The notes under the pieces were generated by a model. That model was not told where the DNA came from and did not search any database. It saw only the letters and a list, made by a program, of their open reading frames with translations. Position numbers and translations under genes: made by a program. Positions 21,542-25,361 of a stretch of DNA of 64,000 bases are shown here, one piece after another (the first letter of the stretch is position 1; each line of letters starts with the position of its first letter). Source of the DNA: Candidatus Latescibacterota bacterium (GTDB lineage Bacteria; Latescibacterota; UBA2968); the NCBI GenBank assembly GCA_965222605.1, contig OZ244960.1:1216001-1280000 (forward strand). The letters are read 5' to 3'.

Positions 21542-22570
21542 ATGCCACAAATCAAAATAGGCAAGGGTATTGGCGATATCTCAGAACAGACATTGCGCTT
21601 TTATCGGCAAATTGGGGTCGATGCGGTATCGATACCAACGCGATGGCGCACAGAACCGGGAACTGGCGAACGCAAACTGGTACCGCCGACACAGACGGGA
21701 CCTAAAGGCGCGCAAGGAGGGATATGGGATGAGCGGGAATTGCAACGCATCAAAGCGAGAATCGAATCGTATGACCTGACGCCTCTCATCGCGGGATTGG
21801 GTATTTCAGGGCGCGTATTAATGGGACAACCGGGCAGGGAGGACGATTTAGAAATTATAAAAGCCAATATCGAAATCGCAGGGCGGCTGGGACTTCGGGC
21901 ATTGAATTACAGTTTCACAGCCCTCAGAGCATCAGAAGGATATGCGGCGCAGCGAGGTGCAGGACGCGGCGGTGCAGATTTGCGGGATTTTGACAACGAG
22001 CGGATAGCCAATCTACCACCTCTCAATTCAATCGGGCAAATTGGGATGGATGAAATGTGGGACAATCTGACCTATTTTTTGGAAAATGCGATTCCAACAG
22101 CAGAAAAAGCGGGTGTACAATTGGCCGCACATCCCAATGATCCACCAGTTCCAGAATATCGCGGCGTTGCCCAACCCCTGGGCGACATCGCGGGCATGCA
22201 ACGGTTGATCGAAGTGATAGATAGCCCATCAAATTGCATTTTTTACGACACGGGCGTAATGACGGAAAAAGGTGCAGATGCCGCCGAGATGATTCGCTAT
22301 TTTGGATCGCGGAATCGCATTGGAACCGTGCATTTCCGAAATGTGAAAGTGGAGATACCCCGATTTAAGTATATCGAGACCTTCCACGATGACGGCGAAT
22401 GCGATATGTTTGCCTGTGTTCAGGCATTTCAAGAGGTGGGTTATAACGGCATGATTGACCCCGACCACACGCCGGGCATCCTGGGCGATACACCAGATAC
22501 GCGCATTGGCTGGGCATATGCCATTGGTCAAATGGTGGCGATGCGAAATGCCGTAGAAAGAAACAGATAA
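21542..22570 (+). CDS. uxuA: Mannonate dehydratase (UxuA) family protein
   Basis: MWDNLTYFLENAIPTAEKAGVQLAAHPNDPP, VHFRNV, ETFHDDG, PDHTP, YAIG. ATG 21542 after AAGGAG. Confidence 0.75.
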   Translation: MPQIKIGKGIGDISEQTLRFYRQIGVDAVSIPTRWRTEPGTGERKLVPPTQTGPKGAQGGIWDERELQRIKARIESYDLTPLIAGLGISGRVLMGQPGREDDLEIIKANIEIAGRLGLRALNYSFTALRASEGYAAQRGAGRGGADLRDFDNERIANLPPLNSIGQIGMDEMWDNLTYFLENAIPTAEKAGVQLAAHPNDPPVPEYRGVAQPLGDIAGMQRLIEVIDSPSNCIFYDTGVMTEKGADAAEMIRYFGSRNRIGTVHFRNVKVEIPRFKYIETFHDDGECDMFACVQAFQEVGYNGMIDPDHTPGILGDTPDTRIGWAYAIGQMVAMRNAVERNR

Positions 22571-22603
22571 AAAAAAGCCCCAACGCGGAAAAGCGTTGGG
22601 GCT
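22569..22603. terminator. Hairpin terminator between convergent uxuA and the small ORF (U-tract on the minus strand)
   Basis: AAAAAAAAGCCCCAACGC-GGAAAA-GCGTTGGGGCT. Confidence 0.8.
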
Positions 22604-22620
22604 ACGTGTGATATTGTGTG

Positions 22621-22746
22621 TCAGAAATTGAGAATGCCATAAACCAGAGTAACCACAAAAATTACGCCTATAATGCCCATGGCGACTTTGAATTGCAAGC
22701 TGATTCTATCTTCTTCCCGGTCGCGCAGTTCGTTGAAAGTCTGCAT
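22621..22746 (-). CDS. 41-aa single-pass small membrane protein
   Basis: MQTFNELRDREEDRISLQFKVAMGIIGVIFVVTLVYGILNF; RBS AAAGGGGGAGAG; upstream TTGACT and an AT-rich -10; terminator downstream. Confidence 0.65.
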   Translation of the reverse strand: MQTFNELRDREEDRISLQFKVAMGIIGVIFVVTLVYGILNF

Positions 22747-22909
22747 GGCTCTCCCCCTTTGAGTAGTGCGAACGGATATGCTTTATATAAATAAAACTAA
22801 TTTTTTATATTAAGTCAATAGACAAAATACGACTCTTGACAATTTATACAGGTAAATCTATCGTTTGCGGTAGCTTTTGCATGAATGTCATACTCGGAGA
22901 AATATACCC

Positions 22910-23226
22910 ATGAAGCGCGCATATCGAAATCTGATGCCAGCTAATATTGAATCTATTGTCGCTTATGTGCGTACATTGGCACCCGTTGACCATATTCCAC
23001 CATAGAAACGGGAATTGGGCACTGGCAAAAGCAGTATTTCATCGGGCGTTTCAGGCAATTTGCCGGGGCAAAAGCAAAGCACATTCTATTGCAGGATGGC
23101 ATGAACAGCGTGATGCCCTGGACGATGTACGCGGGCATGACAGACGAAGACCTCAGCACCATCTACGACTATCTGAGCACTGTTGCGCCAATCCGAAATG
23201 CCGTTGAACGGTTTGCAGAACAGTAA
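22910..23226 (+). pseudogene. Decayed cytochrome c gene (haem-binding segments deleted)
   Basis: Fragments YRNL..NIESIVAYVRTLAPV* and ETGIGHW...FIGRFR...NSVMPWTMYAGMTDEDLSTIYDYLSTVAPIRNAV; no CxxCH remains. Confidence 0.7.
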
Positions 23227-23280
23227 AGAGGAAAATGGGGCTGGGCGGTTGGACTGGCTGACCCCTGACTGCTGATCACT

Positions 23281-23320
23281 AAAAAAAAGAATGGCCGCGA
23301 TCCCTGTTATCGCGGCCATT
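23281..23320 (-). terminator. Intrinsic terminator of the candidate RNA
   Basis: Minus strand AATGGCCGCGAT-AACAGGG-ATCGCGGCCATT-CTTTTTTTT. Confidence 0.9.
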
Positions 23321-23630
23321 TATGTACTACAAGTCATAGAACCTCCTATGTCAGCCGATCGGGTGAGAGGTCCTAACACCCGACCGCTGGGTACAGATTG
23401 GTGGCATAGTAACCTCCTCTTGTGAGTATTGCGGCCCGTCACACCCACCCGCGGTTCGATGAACTTTCTATGCCCTATGTGTTTGTGCGGTGGCCTTTGC
23501 AGAAATTGCTTTCCAAGTCGGGTTACCGAATGGCGGTAACGAGTCCGACGCGCAAAAGAGACCAGATTAAAACACGCGGGCGAGAACCCTCTCGAGCGGA
23601 ATGCCGCCTGACGATTCATATCGCCTGTTA
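23281..23630 (-). ncRNA. Candidate ~350-nt structured RNA of unknown family
   Basis: Bounded by a sigma70-like promoter and an intrinsic terminator; many hairpins and long-range helices; no convincing protein ORF. Confidence 0.6.
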
Positions 23631-23634
23631 TTGA

Positions 23635-23664
23635 AATATAACCCGATAAATTGTGGGATGTCAA
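23635..23664 (-). promoter_or_regulatory. Sigma70-like promoter
   Basis: TTGACA (23664-23659), 18 bp, TATATT (23640-23635). Confidence 0.65.
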
Positions 23665-23771
23665 GAGCCAATTTGAAACTTTTTTTTACTATTGTTAGGA
23701 ACAATTATGCACTATATATCAGTATCCAATCCGCGCTAATCATTTTAGCCATAAAATAGGAGAACGCAGAT

Positions 23772-25361
23772 ATGGGATATGGCAGACAAGAAGATCCGAA
23801 ATTATTTAACGACGAGCAAATGCGTCAATTTATCGCAGACGGGTACGTAATTTTTAAGCCAAATGTGCCCGATAACCTGCACGAGACCATCAGGCAAAAA
23901 CTGCAATTTATGGTAGATGAAGAGTTCAATTACGGTAACAATGTGCTGCCTCGCGTTCCCGAGATGGATCGCATCTTGAACAGCCCAGAAGTGCGGGGCG
24001 CGCTCATAAGCGTACTCGGCCCGGGATATATCGAACACCCACATCGGTTTTGTCACTACATCACATCCGACGCAACACAAAGAACACTCGCCCAAAATTG
24101 TCATCAAGATTCTTACACACCCCTGGGACGCCCGCGACAACACTACCCTCGCTTTGCGCGCATCATGTACTATCCGCAGGATTCACCCGTTGGAATCGGT
24201 CCCACGCACGCGATTCCCGGCACACATTATCACAAGCGATTAACCGATAAAGACCGCCAAAACGCCATTCCAATAGCCGGTAAAGCCGGCACAGTATCAA
24301 TCACGCATTTTGATATAGGACACGCCGCAGGCATCAACGCGCTTCGTCAACCCCGGCATATGATTAAATTCATTTACGTGCGCGCAGAAGAACCGACCGA
24401 ACCCTCGTGGGATTGTCAGGATCATATCTGGCAAAATCCCGAGACATACAAAGCACCACATGATCTGCACCTGATCTGGTCGCATATATGGGATTGGCTA
24501 TGTGGCAAAAAGGATCGATACGAAAGTTTTCGCGCATCAGACCCCGCAATTTGTGAATTAGAAGACTTGCATCACGACAACCTGGACAAACAACTCGCAG
24601 CTATGCATTCAATAGCTGCAACAAAAAATGCCGATGCAATTCCAGCACTGATTCACAAGCTCAATTCCGACGACCAGTGGACGCGCCTCGCGGCTGTATA
24701 TACCCTGGGCGCAATAGGTCAACCCAAACCCCTAATAGAGGCACTCTTGGATGCTGCCGCACACAAAGACGATGATCCCGTACCCCAATCATGGAATGAA
24801 GGCTCCATATCGATGGAAGATGCTGCCCATGCACTTGTTGCCATAGGCACACCTTCACTAAATGCGCTGATTGAATTGCTGGACAATCAAAGCGAATGGG
24901 CACGCATCAACGCGGCCTTCGCACTCGGTGAAATGGATTCTCTGGCGAAGCAAGCCCTGCCTGCACTCACGCGCTGTTTGGACGATGCGTCTCACTGCGT
25001 TGTGCGAACAGCCACAGATGCGCTGGGCAGTATTCGGCGCAACAGCGAAGAATATATACCCGTACTCGAGAGGCTACTCAAAGTCGGACGTCCCGAATGG
25101 CAAATGCCCGACCGACGCAACTGGACGCCCTATGATCAGGTCCGCATCAACGCCGCAATGGCATTTACGCGCCTGGGCAAAGATGCCGCATCTGCCGAAG
25201 CCCTCCTGCTCGACACATTATCCGACCCCAACGGTCACGTCGCTGCATTTGCCTTAGAAGCATTGCGGCGGATAGGCACGCCCTCGGCAATGGATGGCGT
25301 CCTGGAATATTTGATGACGCGGCGGTGGGATGAAAACATTGAGAAAGGAAGACTATTTTGA
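23772..25361 (+). CDS. Phytanoyl-CoA dioxygenase (PhyH)-like 2OG-Fe(II) domain fused to PBS-lyase HEAT repeats
   Basis: QFIADGY, HQD and distal H (DIGH), GPTHAIPGTH; C-terminal repeats RLAAVYTLGAIG, RINAAFALGEM, RTATDALGSI. Confidence 0.85.
   Translation: MGYGRQEDPKLFNDEQMRQFIADGYVIFKPNVPDNLHETIRQKLQFMVDEEFNYGNNVLPRVPEMDRILNSPEVRGALISVLGPGYIEHPHRFCHYITSDATQRTLAQNCHQDSYTPLGRPRQHYPRFARIMYYPQDSPVGIGPTHAIPGTHYHKRLTDKDRQNAIPIAGKAGTVSITHFDIGHAAGINALRQPRHMIKFIYVRAEEPTEPSWDCQDHIWQNPETYKAPHDLHLIWSHIWDWLCGKKDRYESFRASDPAICELEDLHHDNLDKQLAAMHSIAATKNADAIPALIHKLNSDDQWTRLAAVYTLGAIGQPKPLIEALLDAAAHKDDDPVPQSWNEGSISMEDAAHALVAIGTPSLNALIELLDNQSEWARINAAFALGEMDSLAKQALPALTRCLDDASHCVVRTATDALGSIRRNSEEYIPVLERLLKVGRPEWQMPDRRNWTPYDQVRINAAMAFTRLGKDAASAEALLLDTLSDPNGHVAAFALEALRRIGTPSAMDGVLEYLMTRRWDENIEKGRLF

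What the first reader, a model, noticed from the sequence alone, without database searches (positions are those of the whole stretch)
23281..23664. Orphan ~350-nt multi-domain structured RNA with two sequestered SD-AUG motifs
Seen (minus strand): promoter TTGACA-18-TATATT and a strong terminator. Three short 5' hairpins are followed by a CCCGCG/CGCGGG helix (23580-75 with 23453-48) enclosing a multibranch domain: GUGUUU/AAACAC, UGGUCU..UUUGC/GCAAAGGCCA, GUCGG..GUUACCG/CGGUAAC.CCGAC and a GCAA tetraloop stem. GGCAUAG (23474-68) pairs with CUAUGCC (23409-03) as a pseudoknot, and a long CAGCGGUCGGGUG hairpin follows. The motif AGGAGGUU(A)CUAUG occurs twice, opening ORFs of 18 aa (23407-23351) and 5 aa (23337-23320), with both AUGs base-paired. 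It lacks the hallmarks of tmRNA, RNase P, SRP, 6S and the riboswitches I know. Inference: a new ncRNA class, a ribosome/CsrA-binding decoy, or a structured micropeptide mRNA.
Basis: partly seen in the sequence, partly recalled or inferred. Interest (0 to 1): 0.78.

Follow-up and report, generated by a model that had tools for sequence, protein, structure and literature searches.

The report
Abundant unclassified RNA with Pro-Pro micro-ORF
This is a real, very highly expressed RNA gene of about 345 bases from uncultured Latescibacterota bacteria; it matches no described RNA family and joins a conserved folded rod to a tiny Met-Pro-Pro reading frame placed exactly in front of a hairpin, which suggests a device read by the ribosome.

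Summary
The element is real. It has a near-consensus promoter, a strong terminator and one copy in the genome. In the two best-matching metatranscriptome runs its contig depth is about 545, against 0-13 for the flanks.

It matches no Rfam 15 family. RNase P, tmRNA and SRP RNA lie elsewhere in the genome.

Relatives occur in 52 of 132 genomes of the same class (19 of 31 genera). They were not found in 36 genomes of ten other families of the phylum.

The enclosing CCCGCG/CGCGGG helix and two of the 5' hairpins fail in relatives. Three long-range helices (P1-P3) with many compensatory changes take their place.

Family invariants:
- the P1-P3 rod with a conserved asymmetric loop;
- a strong Shine-Dalgarno (SD) site;
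- a start codon followed by two proline codons;
- a GC-rich hairpin, usually a terminator, beginning exactly 21 nt after the start in 37 of 43 modules.

In sister genera the micro-ORF/terminator module sits in front of genes. In this genus no same-strand gene follows.

Best reading (inferred, about 0.4): a ribosome-gated attenuator or riboregulator that has become a stand-alone RNA. The family itself is new.

The parts
23659..23664 (-). -35 box TTGACA
   Evidence: 11 of 12 matches together with the -10 box. Invariant in the 21 sequences of the genus.
23635..23640 (-). -10 box TATATT
   Evidence: Invariant, with the preceding GGGT, in the 21 genus sequences.
23281..23632 (-). Transcript of about 345 nt. 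The 5' end is near 23628-23634; the 3' end lies at the U-tract.
   Evidence: RNA-run contigs cover 23316/23317 to 23596/23613/23628 at depth about 545, against 0-13 in the flanks (X13, X14). In X20 the summed depth reaches 5.5e5 against 15-70 in the flanks. The ends are inferred from contig ends plus the promoter and terminator.
23610..23625 (-). P0, 5' hairpin GGCGAU/AUCGUC (genus-specific)
   Evidence: 88% of cells paired in A1. Absent in L022 and L050.
23603..23607 (-). P1, 5' strand GCGGC
   Evidence: Pairs with 23431-23435. 99% paired in A1 and 93% across 15 lineages, with 3 pairs changed on both sides.
23431..23435 (-). P1, 3' strand GCCGC
23593..23599 (-). P2, 5' strand CCGCUCG
   Evidence: Pairs with 23445-23451. 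The middle three pairs occur in at least 6 different compensating versions across lineages.
23445..23451 (-). P2, 3' strand CGGGUGG
23584..23588 (-). P3, 5' strand GGUUC
   Evidence: Pairs with 23453-23457. 100% paired in A1 and 98.6% in A5; 4 of 5 pairs changed on both sides.
23453..23457 (-). P3, 3' strand GAACC
23436..23444 (-). Conserved asymmetric internal loop, 3' side: GUGUGACGG (family pattern G-W-G-U-N-R-N-G-G)
   Evidence: Kept in all 14 well-aligned lineages. Kept even in the minimal versions L088 and L155.
23472..23581 (-). Distal domain, helices P4-P9. Variable in the family: about 140 nt here and 25 nt or absent elsewhere.
   Evidence: Helices P4-P9 are 85-100% paired within the genus. 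Replaced by unrelated inserts in other genera.
23412..23419 (-). SD1, GAGGAGGU
   Evidence: AGGAGG is invariant in 14 of 14 lineages.
23351..23407 (-). ORF1: AUG CCA CCA ..., 18 codons plus UGA (MPPICTQRSGVRTSHPIG)
   Evidence: Start codon plus two Pro codons in 43 of 43 modules. Synonymous changes at both Pro codons; start is ATG 40, GTG 2, TTG 1.
23356..23386 (-). Hairpin 1 (CGGUCGGG/CCCGAUCG), inside ORF1. Its GCGG begins 21 nt after the A of AUG. No U-tract follows it here.
   Evidence: 99.5% paired. Homologous to the terminator hairpin of other genera. Spacing.
23366..23371 (-). Anti-SD ACCUCU in the loop of hairpin 1
   Evidence: Pairs with 23341-23346. 97.8% paired; C-G changed to U-A in L022 and L050. 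GACCUCC:GGAGGUC in L156.
23341..23346 (-). SD2 GGAGGU, the pseudoknot partner of the hairpin-1 loop
   Evidence: GAGGU is kept even where ORF2 has been lost (L019-L021).
23320..23337 (-). ORF2: AUG ACU UGU AGU ACA UAA (5 codons). Its stop codon abuts the terminator.
   Evidence: Present in 18 of 23 sequences and lost in L016 and L018-L021. GGCC of the terminator begins 21 nt after this AUG (read).
23281..23320 (-). Intrinsic terminator: 12-bp stem, 7-nt loop, U8
   Evidence: 93.7% paired, with 3 pairs changed on both sides.

Best explanation
The feature is a stand-alone, very abundant RNA gene of about 345 nt. It belongs to an undescribed RNA family found in one class of Latescibacterota.

The family has four parts in a fixed order:
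1. A rod of three helices (P1-P3) with a conserved asymmetric internal loop, capped by a variable distal domain.
2. A strong SD site.
3. A start codon followed by two proline codons.
4. A GC-rich hairpin whose GCGG starts exactly 21 nt after the A of the start codon. In most members this hairpin is an intrinsic terminator.

Proposed mechanism (inferred). The element is ribosome-gated. A ribosome that starts on the micro-ORF and pauses with Pro-Pro in its P and A sites has its leading edge right at the foot of the hairpin and leaves the hairpin intact. A ribosome that moves on melts it. The hairpin, and so termination or the RNA's conformation, would then report how well ribosomes initiate and pass Met-Pro-Pro (EF-P or Pro-tRNA status). 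The rod would set access to the start site through an unknown ligand or protein.

In this genus the device is doubled. Hairpin 1 has lost its U-tract, and its loop holds SD2 in a pseudoknot. Translating ORF1 would free SD2, and a ribosome ending ORF2 would sit on the real terminator.

No same-strand gene follows here. The output is therefore probably the RNA itself (acting in trans or as a decoy) or read-through into the convergent neighbour.
For: SHOWN.
- Promoter and terminator; single copy in the genome.
- Expression: contigs of two RNA runs at depth about 545 over 23316-23613, against 0-13 in the flanks. A third run reaches a summed depth of 5.5e5, against 15-70 in the flanks.
- No Rfam match.
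- Distribution: present in 20 of 20 other genomes of the genus, 28 of 31 genomes of the family and 52 of 132 of the class, in 19 of 31 genera.
- Covariation: within the genus plus two sister genomes, 14 pairs changed on both sides against 4.7 +/- 1.5 in shuffles. Across 15 lineages, 37 against 20.4 +/- 2.6, with slid controls at 10-12.
- Module statistics over 43 distinct modules: 43 of 43 have start-Pro-Pro. The first Pro codon is CCA or CCG and never CCC or CCU. The second is any of the four. GCGR sits at nt 21-24 in 37 of 43 and within 1 nt in 42 of 43, while the 11 nt between vary.
- The module alone, with a U-tract terminator, stands before same-strand genes for a CBS pair, a redoxin and a PTPS-family protein (all at 45-150 nt) and, further off, a DegT aminotransferase; before ABC ATPase genes the module hairpin has no U-tract.
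- The pseudoknot between the hairpin-1 loop and SD2 covaries.
- EF-P is encoded in the genome.

FROM PAPERS.
- In E. coli a ribosome following the polymerase prevents the pyrL terminator hairpin from forming. An engineered polyproline stall upstream of it raises termination in cells lacking EF-P (PMC5021804; passages read).
- CCC and CCU are disfavoured in Pro-Pro pairs, and the abstract links codon choice to frameshifting (PMC8129111; passages read).

RECALLED, NOT TESTED. A ribosome protects roughly 15-17 nt downstream of the first base of its P-site codon.
Against: - No experiment or read-level data show that the micro-ORF is translated, that ribosomes pause on it, or that termination responds.
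- CCNCC could be conserved simply because it pairs with GGAGG of SD1. That helix never varies and N is always a purine, so an RNA-only constraint also fits.
- In one module (L088, first copy) a 1-nt deletion changes the peptide to MHRPDT.
- In this window hairpin 1 is not a terminator and no same-strand gene follows, so attenuation has no evident target here.
- Downstream genes elsewhere are heterogeneous.
- The A5 alignment was fitted to the model's structure, which inflates pair counts.
- Contig depths cannot give strand or exact ends and may sum several strains.
Confidence: 0.42

Rival explanations
1. An orphaned riboswitch-type leader. The P1-P3 rod is an aptamer for an unknown small molecule and controls the SD site or the terminator. 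The micro-ORF is secondary. In this genus the regulated gene was lost and the terminated leader merely accumulates.
For: - The full element lies directly before CBS-pair genes in genera g2, g3 and g5.
- Conserved nucleotides concentrate in the internal loops between covarying helices.
- G000 has no orthologue of that CBS-pair protein; the best match is 31% identity inside larger proteins.
- The AUAG:CUAU pairing to the start codon shows 2 compensatory changes.
Against: - Strongly conserved in 21 of 21 genomes of the genus although no same-strand gene follows. In the 12 of 21 loci whose flanks I listed, the next gene is convergent.
- Stand-alone also in g6, g10, g13, g16 and g19.
- Downstream genes where present are unrelated to one another: CBS, epimerase, AlaDh/PNT, 2-hydroxyacid dehydrogenase, sigma-70.
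- The rod shrinks to P1-P2 in L155.
- The micro-ORF features are at least as conserved as the rod.
Confidence: 0.2
2. An mRNA for micropeptides. The product that matters is the peptide (MPPICTQRSGVRTSHPIG, and perhaps MTCST), and the long structured 5' part is its untranslated region.
For: - Strong SD at a proper distance. Only valid start codons occur (ATG, GTG, TTG).
- Synonymous variation at both Pro codons, and an open frame in 43 of 43 modules.
- A 3-nt indel in L018-L021 keeps the frame, and the stop codon stays in place.
- Very high RNA level.
Against: - Only Met-Pro-Pro is conserved.
- ORF length runs from 6 to 32 codons; 9 is the commonest (13 of 43).
- Residues 8-9 are dictated by the GCGGYYG stem, which is present whether or not the ORF reaches it.
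- Within the genus, changes at codons 5-7 and 11-15 are mostly non-synonymous.
- ORF2 is lost in 5 of 23 sequences.
Confidence: 0.1
3. An abundant protein-binding RNA, either 6S-like (binding RNA polymerase) or a sponge for an RNA-binding protein or for 30S subunits. The rod or the SD motifs would be the binding sites.
For: - Abundance typical of housekeeping ncRNAs.
- Rod-like fold with internal loops.
- The Rfam 6S model finds nothing in G000 or in any of 53 genomes of the order, so the 6S RNA of this group is unidentified.
- Mostly one copy per genome, with its own promoter.
- Two AGGAGG motifs.
Against: - The 6S model is insensitive: it rings in only 4-5 of 14 control genomes. Its silence also covers genus g7, which lacks this RNA (0 of 15).
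- There is no conserved large central bubble. The only big loop (2 nt opposite 14-18 nt) is genus-specific.
- The rod is reduced to about 45-75 nt in L155 and L088.
- Only two GGA motifs, against many in CsrB-type sponges (the latter is recalled).
- The family always keeps the start-Pro-Pro-hairpin module, which a 6S RNA would not need.
Confidence: 0.1

Closest known systems
pyrBI (pyrL) type ribosome-mediated transcription attenuation in E. coli, and the engineered polyproline/EF-P version of it (PMC5021804; passages read)
   Same: A short leader ORF runs into an intrinsic terminator, and a ribosome close behind the polymerase physically prevents the terminator hairpin. In the engineered reporter, a Pro-rich stall upstream of the hairpin raises termination when EF-P is missing.
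   Different: - Here the stall motif would be natural and minimal: fMet-Pro-Pro at codons 1-3.
- The spacing to the hairpin is fixed at 20 nt.
- A conserved structured rod precedes the SD site.
- Many members, including this one, have no same-strand gene downstream.
- Nothing has been tested experimentally.
Salmonella mgtA and mgtCBR leaders with proline-codon micro-ORFs (mgtL, mgtP). This is recalled; of PMC5299641 and PMC8092293 I saw only the search listing and the start of the abstracts.
   Same: A long structured leader combined with a very short ORF rich in Pro codons, whose translation decides between alternative RNA structures and termination. EF-P and proline status feed in.
   Different: Different phylum and no sequence or structure similarity (no Rfam hit). 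Those are always leaders of Mg2+ transport or virulence genes. This family is often stand-alone and uses exactly two Pro codons right after the start.
Orphan mid-size structured ncRNAs of unknown function with their own promoter and terminator, such as the raiA motif RNA (recalled; a raiA model is, as I recall, in Rfam, and nothing in Rfam 15 matched)
   Same: Abundant and independently transcribed, with a covarying multi-helix structure, a lineage-restricted distribution and a loose, inconsistent association with neighbouring genes.
   Different: No similarity to them. This family carries an obligatory SD-start-Pro-Pro micro-ORF and a hairpin at fixed spacing.
6S RNA
   Same: High abundance, a largely double-stranded rod and one copy per genome. 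No other 6S candidate is detectable in these genomes.
   Different: No conserved central bubble. The rod can shrink to 45-75 nt. About 345 nt here against about 185 nt. It contains translation signals.
Riboswitch or leader elements that also act as sRNAs, and dual-function sRNAs that encode a small peptide (e.g. SreA/SreB, SR1, RNAIII; recalled)
   Same: A leader-type architecture released as a discrete, abundant, terminated RNA. A coding and a structural part lie on one small transcript.
   Different: No ligand, target or peptide function is known here. Relatives in other genera do sit in front of genes, which suggests descent from, or parallel use as, a cis element.

Membership tests
Any Rfam 15 family (4227 models) | Score at or above the family's gathering threshold | tested here: not met
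   0 matches in the whole window. With permissive filters on 23150-23850 only 3 chance-level matches appeared (E 2.7-7; 12-16 bits against gathering scores of 48-80). In 8 relatives' loci, 3 weak leader-terminator matches (E 0.04-0.47) lay elsewhere in those loci, not on the element.
RNase P RNA / tmRNA / SRP RNA | It would be the genome's copy of that housekeeping RNA | tested here: not met
   All three are found elsewhere in G000 above their cut-offs: RNase P 316 bits, tmRNA 190.5 bits, SRP RNA 76 bits.
6S RNA | A match to the 6S covariance model | tested here: not met
   No match in G000 or in any of 53 genomes of the order. The model rings in only 4-5 of 14 control genomes, so this test is weak.
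6S RNA | A conserved long rod with a large central bubble that mimics an open promoter, about 185 nt (feature recalled) | tested here: not met
   The conserved part is P1-P3 at the base. The distal part varies from about 140 nt to 25 nt (L088) or is absent (L155). No conserved two-sided bubble appears in the consensus.
Leader-peptide transcription attenuator | SD site and start codon of a short ORF | tested here: met
   AGGAGG is invariant in 14 of 14 lineages. Starts are ATG 40, GTG 2 and TTG 1 of 43 modules.
Leader-peptide transcription attenuator | Conserved regulatory codons in the ORF | tested here: met
   Two Pro codons at positions 2-3 in 43 of 43 modules, with synonymous variation (CCA or CCG, then any of the four). 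One extra degenerate copy in L088 reads MHRPDT.
Leader-peptide transcription attenuator | The ORF overlaps or abuts an intrinsic terminator, so that ribosome position decides hairpin formation | tested here: met
   The hairpin starts 21 nt after the A of the start codon in 37 of 43 modules, and a T-rich tail follows it in most one-module members. In the window itself hairpin 1 lacks the U-tract, and ORF2 (stop at 23320) abuts the real terminator.
Leader-peptide transcription attenuator | A regulated gene downstream on the same strand | tested here: not met
   Not met for the window: the next minus-strand ORFs are short and overlap a plus-strand ORF. In the 12 of 21 genus loci whose flanks I listed, the neighbour is convergent. 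Met in other genera: CBS, redoxin, PTPS, ABC, DegT.
Leader-peptide transcription attenuator | Termination or read-through responds to translation of the leader | not testable with these tools
   This needs coupled transcription-translation assays or reporters.
Riboswitch | A conserved, covarying aptamer-like domain upstream of an expression platform | tested here: met
   P1, P2 and P3 are 93%, 88% and 98.6% paired, with 3, 3 and 4 pairs changed on both sides across 15 lineages. The internal loops are conserved.
Riboswitch | Consistent association with genes of one pathway | tested here: not met
   Downstream genes are CBS pair, epimerase, AlaDh/PNT, 2-hydroxyacid dehydrogenase, sigma-70, or none/convergent.
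Riboswitch | Binding of a specific ligand | not testable with these tools
   No ligand can be inferred. This needs in-line probing or similar.
CsrA/RsmA-sequestering sRNA | Many GGA motifs presented in hairpin loops (feature recalled) | tested here: not met
   There are only two AGGAGG motifs (23419-23412 and 23346-23341). One pairs with a hairpin loop rather than lying in one.
Ordinary protein-coding gene (114-aa TTG ORF, 23664-23320 minus) | Frame preserved among relatives and similarity to a protein family | tested here: not met
   No Pfam match. The ORF would start inside the -35 box. Relatives carry 1-, 2- and 4-nt indels along it.

The most novel reading that the evidence does not exclude
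A new class of riboregulator in which the sensor is the ribosome itself. A minimal fMet-Pro-Pro pause site sits exactly one ribosome half-footprint in front of a hairpin, and a conserved rod domain is fused to it. It is used both as a general attenuator before unrelated genes and as a stand-alone RNA that is among the most abundant transcripts of Latescibacterota in the sponge-labelled RNA runs laid here. As a free RNA it could report or buffer the cell's capacity to translate Pro-Pro (EF-P or Pro-tRNA state), for instance by trapping ribosomes or by switching its 3' end.
Probability: 0.25. Interest if true: 0.85.

Novelty: new variant of a known kind. Interest (0 to 1): 0.72.

Why it matters
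Latescibacterota are uncultured, and I found no paper that mentions any noncoding RNA in them.

This RNA is conserved across a whole class of the phylum. It matches no curated family. In the metatranscriptomes examined, its contig depth is about 40-fold (two runs) to several thousand-fold (summed, one run) above that of its neighbouring genes.

Its invariant parts are unusually explicit for an uncharacterised RNA: SD, start, Pro-Pro, a 20-nt spacer and a hairpin. They make a concrete hypothesis directly testable in vitro without culturing the organism, namely that ribosome pausing at Pro-Pro gates an RNA hairpin.

If the hypothesis holds, this would be a natural counterpart of the engineered polyproline/EF-P attenuation reporter. 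It would also be an example of a cis-regulatory module that became, or also serves as, a free and abundant RNA.

If it fails, the covarying P1-P3 rod remains a candidate ligand- or protein-binding domain of unknown specificity.

Tried and rejected
- **BLAST-level search.** It reached only the genus plus one partial hit; covariance models were needed to go further.
- **Exact-pattern scan of genome contigs.** It returned 38 stretches, of which 20 are true relatives. I looked at 6 of the other 18 (L057; L047, L048, L058, L026, L051); they are coding sequence that matches the pattern by chance. The remaining 12 I judged only from their lack of BLAST similarity.
- **DNA alignment as a genome query.** Not accepted.
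- **Full-length covariance model.** Forecast too slow. I trimmed to 288 columns (R1) and later built a sequence-only model of the 3' half (R2).
- **A mixed 'core' model with structure.** Not built, because model-fitted alignments of diverse members exceeded 400 columns.
- **Anti-terminator idea.** The P1 3' strand pairing with the hairpin's 5' arm, and the likeness of the P1 5' strand to that arm (GGCGGC in L086, GUGCGGC in L096): read by eye. I saw no consistent covariation and made no count, so I dropped it.
- **Alternative pairing of GGCGGCAU (P1 5' strand) with AUGCCACC.** It appears in the single-sequence MFE fold (-129.2 against -120.9 kcal/mol for the fold constrained to the consensus). 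G35 changed to A in L022 and L050 breaks it while P1 compensates, so it is not adopted as the conserved fold.
- **K-turn or loop-E reading of the conserved loop.** Compared from memory only. It did not fit, and I make no claim.
- **Other copies in the genome.** A scan for SD + start + Pro-Pro gave 39 hits. By eye, only the window's element has the GCGG hairpin at +20.
- **6S replacement test.** Uninformative, because the model finds nothing anywhere in the order.
- **Parts of the window without RNA contigs.** These are not evidence of silence.
- **Runs X17-X19.** Small word shares. Only X17 was laid, and it gave one contig at depth 4.6. I draw no habitat claim from them.
- **Literature.** Four searches found no description of this RNA. 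Paper supplements are closed and were not consulted. Supplementary motif lists of the ncRNA-discovery papers listed could hold a related motif that I could not see.
- **The search of earlier findings.** Closed.
Full report
**What is in the window.**

On the minus strand there is a near-consensus promoter, TTGACA-18-TATATT, at 23664-23635 (11 of 12 positions). There is also a strong intrinsic terminator at 23320-23290, with a 12-bp stem, 7 G-C pairs and a T8 tail.

Between them lie two AGGAGGU-AUG motifs. They open an 18-codon ORF (23407-23351) and a 5-codon ORF (23337-23320).

The 355-nt stretch folds to -129.2 kcal/mol. Dinucleotide shuffles give -108.7 +/- 5.5, so z is -3.73 and 0 of 100 shuffles fold as well.

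A 114-aa TTG ORF spans the region. It would start in the -35 box, has no Pfam match and is broken by 1-, 2- and 4-nt indels in relatives. It is not a gene.

The flanking genes are on the plus strand. A PhyH + HEAT-repeat protein gene (23772-25361) is divergent. A short plus-strand ORF and a UxuA-like gene are convergent.

**It is not a known RNA.**

Rfam 15 gives no match at gathering thresholds anywhere in the 64-kb window. With permissive filters on the region it gives only chance-level matches, E 2.7-7. Eight relatives' loci gave nothing on the element.

The genome (6.34 Mb, one contig) has its RNase P RNA, tmRNA and SRP RNA elsewhere. The Rfam 6S model finds nothing in this genome or in any of 53 genomes of the order. 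It rings in only 4-5 of 14 control genomes, so its silence says little.

**It is expressed, discretely and at a very high level.**

The run search listed 20 runs that hold at least part of the stretch, 6 of them on record as RNA. I laid four RNA runs, all kept as assembled contigs.

- X13 and X14 each have one contig covering 23317-23613 and 23316-23596 at word depth about 545. The flanks have depth 0-13.
- X20 has 405 laid pieces. Their summed depth reaches 5.5e5 over the element, against 15-70 over the neighbouring genes.
- X17 has one piece at depth 4.6, ending at 23628.

The 5' ends of these contigs (about 23628-23634 after allowing for a variant 5' hairpin in X13) fit a start a few bases downstream of the -10 box.

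The contigs stop at the foot of the terminator hairpin. That may be an assembly break at an inverted repeat.

Contigs give neither the strand nor exact ends, and depths may sum several strains. The strand assignment rests on the promoter, the T-tail and the many G-U pairs in conserved helices (for example 21 of 23 at P2 pair 42:205). Those pairs would be C-A mismatches on the other strand.

**Who has it.**

True relatives recovered from the named genome collection all carry titles of Candidatus Latescibacterota or Latescibacteria MAGs.

| Search | Query | Group | Genomes with a match |
|---|---|---|---|
| 1 | BLAST | other genomes of the genus | 20 of 20 (73-92% identity) |
| 2 | model R1 (270 positions, 58 pairs) | family | 28 of 31 |
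| 3 | model R1 | order | 31 of 53 |
| 4 | model R1 | even sample of the phylum | 39 of 151 |
| 5 | model R2 (sequence only, 3' half, 14 lineages) | class | 52 of 132; 19 of 31 genera |

In the phylum sample all matches fall in four families of one class. None were found in 36 genomes of ten other families. One genus (g7) has none in 15 genomes with either model. Most genomes have one copy.

These are samples searched at limited sensitivity. The correct wording is 'not found in those searched'.

In 23 sequences (21 of the genus plus two of genus g6), RNAalifold and my curated structure pair the 5' segment with a distant 3' segment:

| Helix | 5' strand | 3' strand |
|---|---|---|
| P1 | GCGGC, 23607-23603 | GCCGC, 23435-23431 |
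| P2 | CCGCUCG, 23599-23593 | CGGGUGG, 23451-23445 |
| P3 | GGUUC, 23588-23584 | GAACC, 23457-23453 |

These three helices enclose a distal domain, P4-P9.

- On that alignment 95.4% of cells pair. Fourteen pairs have changes on both sides, against 4.7 +/- 1.5 in shuffles (0 of 500 reach it) and 3-9 in slid controls.
- Across 15 lineages from four families, aligned to the model (which favours its structure), 37 pairs change on both sides. Shuffles give 20.4 +/- 2.6 and slid controls 10-12.
- In that set P1, P2 and P3 are 93%, 88% and 98.6% paired.
- The middle of P2 alone occurs as GCU/RGU, AUU/GGU, AUC/GAU, GUC/GAC, GCC/GGC and GAU/AUC.

His second and third 5' hairpins pair in 67.9% of cells, against 66.0% in shuffles.

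His local helices inside the distal domain and the long ORF1 hairpin hold within the genus.

His pseudoknot is ambiguous. The AUAG:CUAU part shows U-A changed to C-G exactly in the two sequences whose start codon is GUG, but it is broken in four others.

The distal domain is not conserved beyond the genus and its closest relatives. It is replaced by unrelated inserts, reduced to a 25-nt cap (L088) or absent (L155).

The base of the rod is what is conserved. It has an asymmetric internal loop (3 nt opposite G-W-G-U-N-R-N-G-G) and a four-purine loop ARAR opposite a single G.

**The invariant 3' module.**

I collected 43 distinct modules from the loci fetched, removing duplicates on the first 60 nt.

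- **Start and prolines.** All 43 have an SD-like GGAGG, then a start codon (ATG 40, GTG 2, TTG 1), then two proline codons.
- **Codon choice.** The first Pro codon is CCA (29) or CCG (14) and never CCC or CCU. The second is CCG, CCU, CCA or CCC.
- **Spacer.** The next 11 nt vary (column entropies 0.95-1.99 bits).
- **Hairpin position.** A GC-rich stem then begins with GCGR at nucleotides 21-24 counted from the A of the start codon. This holds in 37 of 43 modules, and within one base in 42 of 43.
- **ORF length.** It is 6, 9 (commonest, 13 of 43), 10, 12, 18-19, 22 or more codons. The stop may lie at the foot of the stem (UA-G, sharing the G of GCGG), in its 5' arm, or just past its 3' arm.

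So the stem position is fixed whether or not the frame reaches it. Beyond Met-Pro-Pro the peptide is not conserved.

In most one-module members a T-rich tail follows the stem, which makes it a terminator.

**Cis and stand-alone uses.**

The module without the rod, with a U-tract terminator, stands in front of same-strand genes:

- a 145-aa CBS-pair protein (L091);
- a redoxin (L109);
- a PTPS-family protein (L110; L089 and L092 carry the same module, but I did not identify their downstream genes);
- a DegT-family aminotransferase (L117).

Before ABC-transporter ATPase genes (L114-L116) the module is also present, but its own hairpin has no U-tract; a separate terminator lies further downstream.

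The full element (rod plus module) stands directly before CBS-pair genes in g2, g3 and g5 (L158, L159, L086, L087, L088).

Elsewhere it is followed at 110-600 nt by unrelated genes: an epimerase in g20 and g14, AlaDh/PNT in g17, a 2-hydroxyacid dehydrogenase in g9 and sigma-70 family genes in g8 and g2. Or it is followed by a convergent gene, in g1, g6, g10, g13, g16 and g19.

In the window's genus the upstream PhyH-HEAT gene is syntenic in 17 of 21 loci. The downstream neighbour differs and is convergent in the 12 of 21 loci whose flanks I listed.

G000 has no orthologue of the CBS-pair protein. It also has no second module of this kind: of 39 SD-start-Pro-Pro hits, only this one has the hairpin at +20, judged by eye.

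**The two-stage layout in the window.**

Here hairpin 1 (23386-23356) corresponds to the terminator of other genera but lacks a U-tract. ORF1 ends (UGA, 23353-23351) just past it.

Its loop ACCUCU (23371-23366) pairs with the downstream GGAGGU (23346-23341). This pairing holds in 97.8% of cells, with C-G changed to U-A in L022 and L050. As GACCUCC:GGAGGUC it also occurs in L156.

GAGGU is kept even where ORF2 has been lost.

ORF2's stop codon touches the real terminator, whose GGCC again begins 21 nt after ORF2's AUG.

Two-module versions also occur in g9, g10 and g11.

**How it most likely works (inference).**

The fixed 20-nt spacer fits the size of a ribosome's downstream footprint; that size is recalled, not tested.

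With fMet-Pro in the P site and the second Pro codon in the A site, the leading edge would lie at about nucleotide 19-20. That is at the foot of the stem. The next translocation would begin to open it.

A ribosome that initiates and passes Pro-Pro would thus prevent the hairpin or terminator. One that does not initiate, or that pauses, would leave it intact.

This is the logic of pyrBI attenuation and of the engineered polyproline reporter, in which loss of EF-P increased termination at the pyrL hairpin (PMC5021804; passages read).

The absence of CCC and CCU at the first Pro codon, which is followed by C, agrees with selection on translated Pro-Pro pairs as described for E. coli (PMC8129111; passages read). 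EF-P is encoded in G000.

The rod would modulate access to the start region through an unknown ligand or protein.

In the window, translating ORF1 would open hairpin 1 and release SD2. A ribosome terminating ORF2 would then cover the terminator's 5' arm.

**What argues against.**

No step of this mechanism is shown.

CCRCC may be conserved because it pairs with GGAGG of SD1. That helix never varies and keeps a purine-A mismatch.

One degenerate copy reads MHRPDT.

The window's element has no gene to attenuate. Its conservation in 21 of 21 genomes of the genus and its very high level argue that the free RNA has a function of its own.

I put about 0.42 on the ribosome-gated reading. I put 0.2 on an orphaned riboswitch-type leader, 0.1 on a micropeptide mRNA and 0.1 on a protein-binding or 6S-like RNA. 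The rest is open.

That this is a real, expressed and previously undescribed RNA family I hold at about 0.9.

**Novelty.**

No Rfam family matches. Four literature searches found no description, but supplements could not be read.

The kind of element is known: a leader-peptide attenuator, or a structured small RNA. Four things together are new:
- the minimal Met-Pro-Pro motif at fixed spacing;
- the conserved rod;
- the parallel use of the module before unrelated genes;
- the abundant stand-alone form.

I therefore file it as a new variant of a known kind. There is a 0.25 chance that it is a new class of ribosome-sensing riboregulator.

Noticed in passing
window 23415-23628 (run X17, table 5): One low-depth (4.6) RNA contig of a diverged relative joins position 23415 (inside SD1) back to 23628 (the RNA's 5' end): 'goes back 214'. 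This could be an assembly artefact, a tandem copy in that strain, or a circularised or ligated rod-domain fragment.
   Followed up: no
G000:C1 near 3278, 170885, 2372536 and 6302537: At least four near-identical copies of a gene start AGAAAGGAGACCCACT-ATG encoding MPPTRPPYP(P/S)ELKRQIVELVRAGRS... This looks like a multi-copy insertion-sequence transposase; one copy is truncated by a stop.
   Followed up: no
L119 (G118:C3), about 1316-1404 in my oriented copy: A tandem array of at least four copies of a hairpin-plus-T-run unit (TGTCACCYGATCRGGTGA + TTTTTC). The covariance model hit it weakly (E 0.008). It is not a member of the family.
   Followed up: no
L114 (G121:C30), L115, L116: In genus g24 the Met-Pro-Pro module (duplicated in tandem in L114) opens a different conserved RNA of about 250 nt. 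That RNA ends in its own terminator just upstream of an ABC-transporter ATPase gene.
   Followed up: partly
L111, L113, L118, L149: In genera g19 and g20 the element lies immediately downstream of a ferritin-like gene on the same strand, with its own promoter-like TTGAC box. This is a second recurring neighbourhood besides the CBS-pair genes.
   Followed up: no
L147 (G042) and L090 (G021): In two different families a sigma-70 family gene lies 350-600 nt downstream of the element on the same strand.
   Followed up: partly
order-wide, 53 genomes: The Rfam 6S model detects no 6S RNA in any of the 53 genomes of this order, so the 6S RNA of these bacteria, if present, is still unidentified.
   Followed up: partly
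window 23601-23607 versus 23400-23407: In the single-sequence MFE fold, GGCGGCAU (P1 5' strand plus loop) pairs with AUGCCACC (start plus Pro-Pro codons) instead of forming P1. The MFE is -129.2 kcal/mol, against -120.9 for the fold constrained to the consensus. This may be an alternative conformer within the genus; changes in L022 and L050 do not support it.
   Followed up: partly
window 22570-23280: Compared with most relatives, this genome lacks an esterase-like gene of about 260-285 aa between the RNA terminator and a conserved cytochrome-c-like gene. What remains is a stretch of about 700 nt holding only short ORFs.
   Followed up: partly
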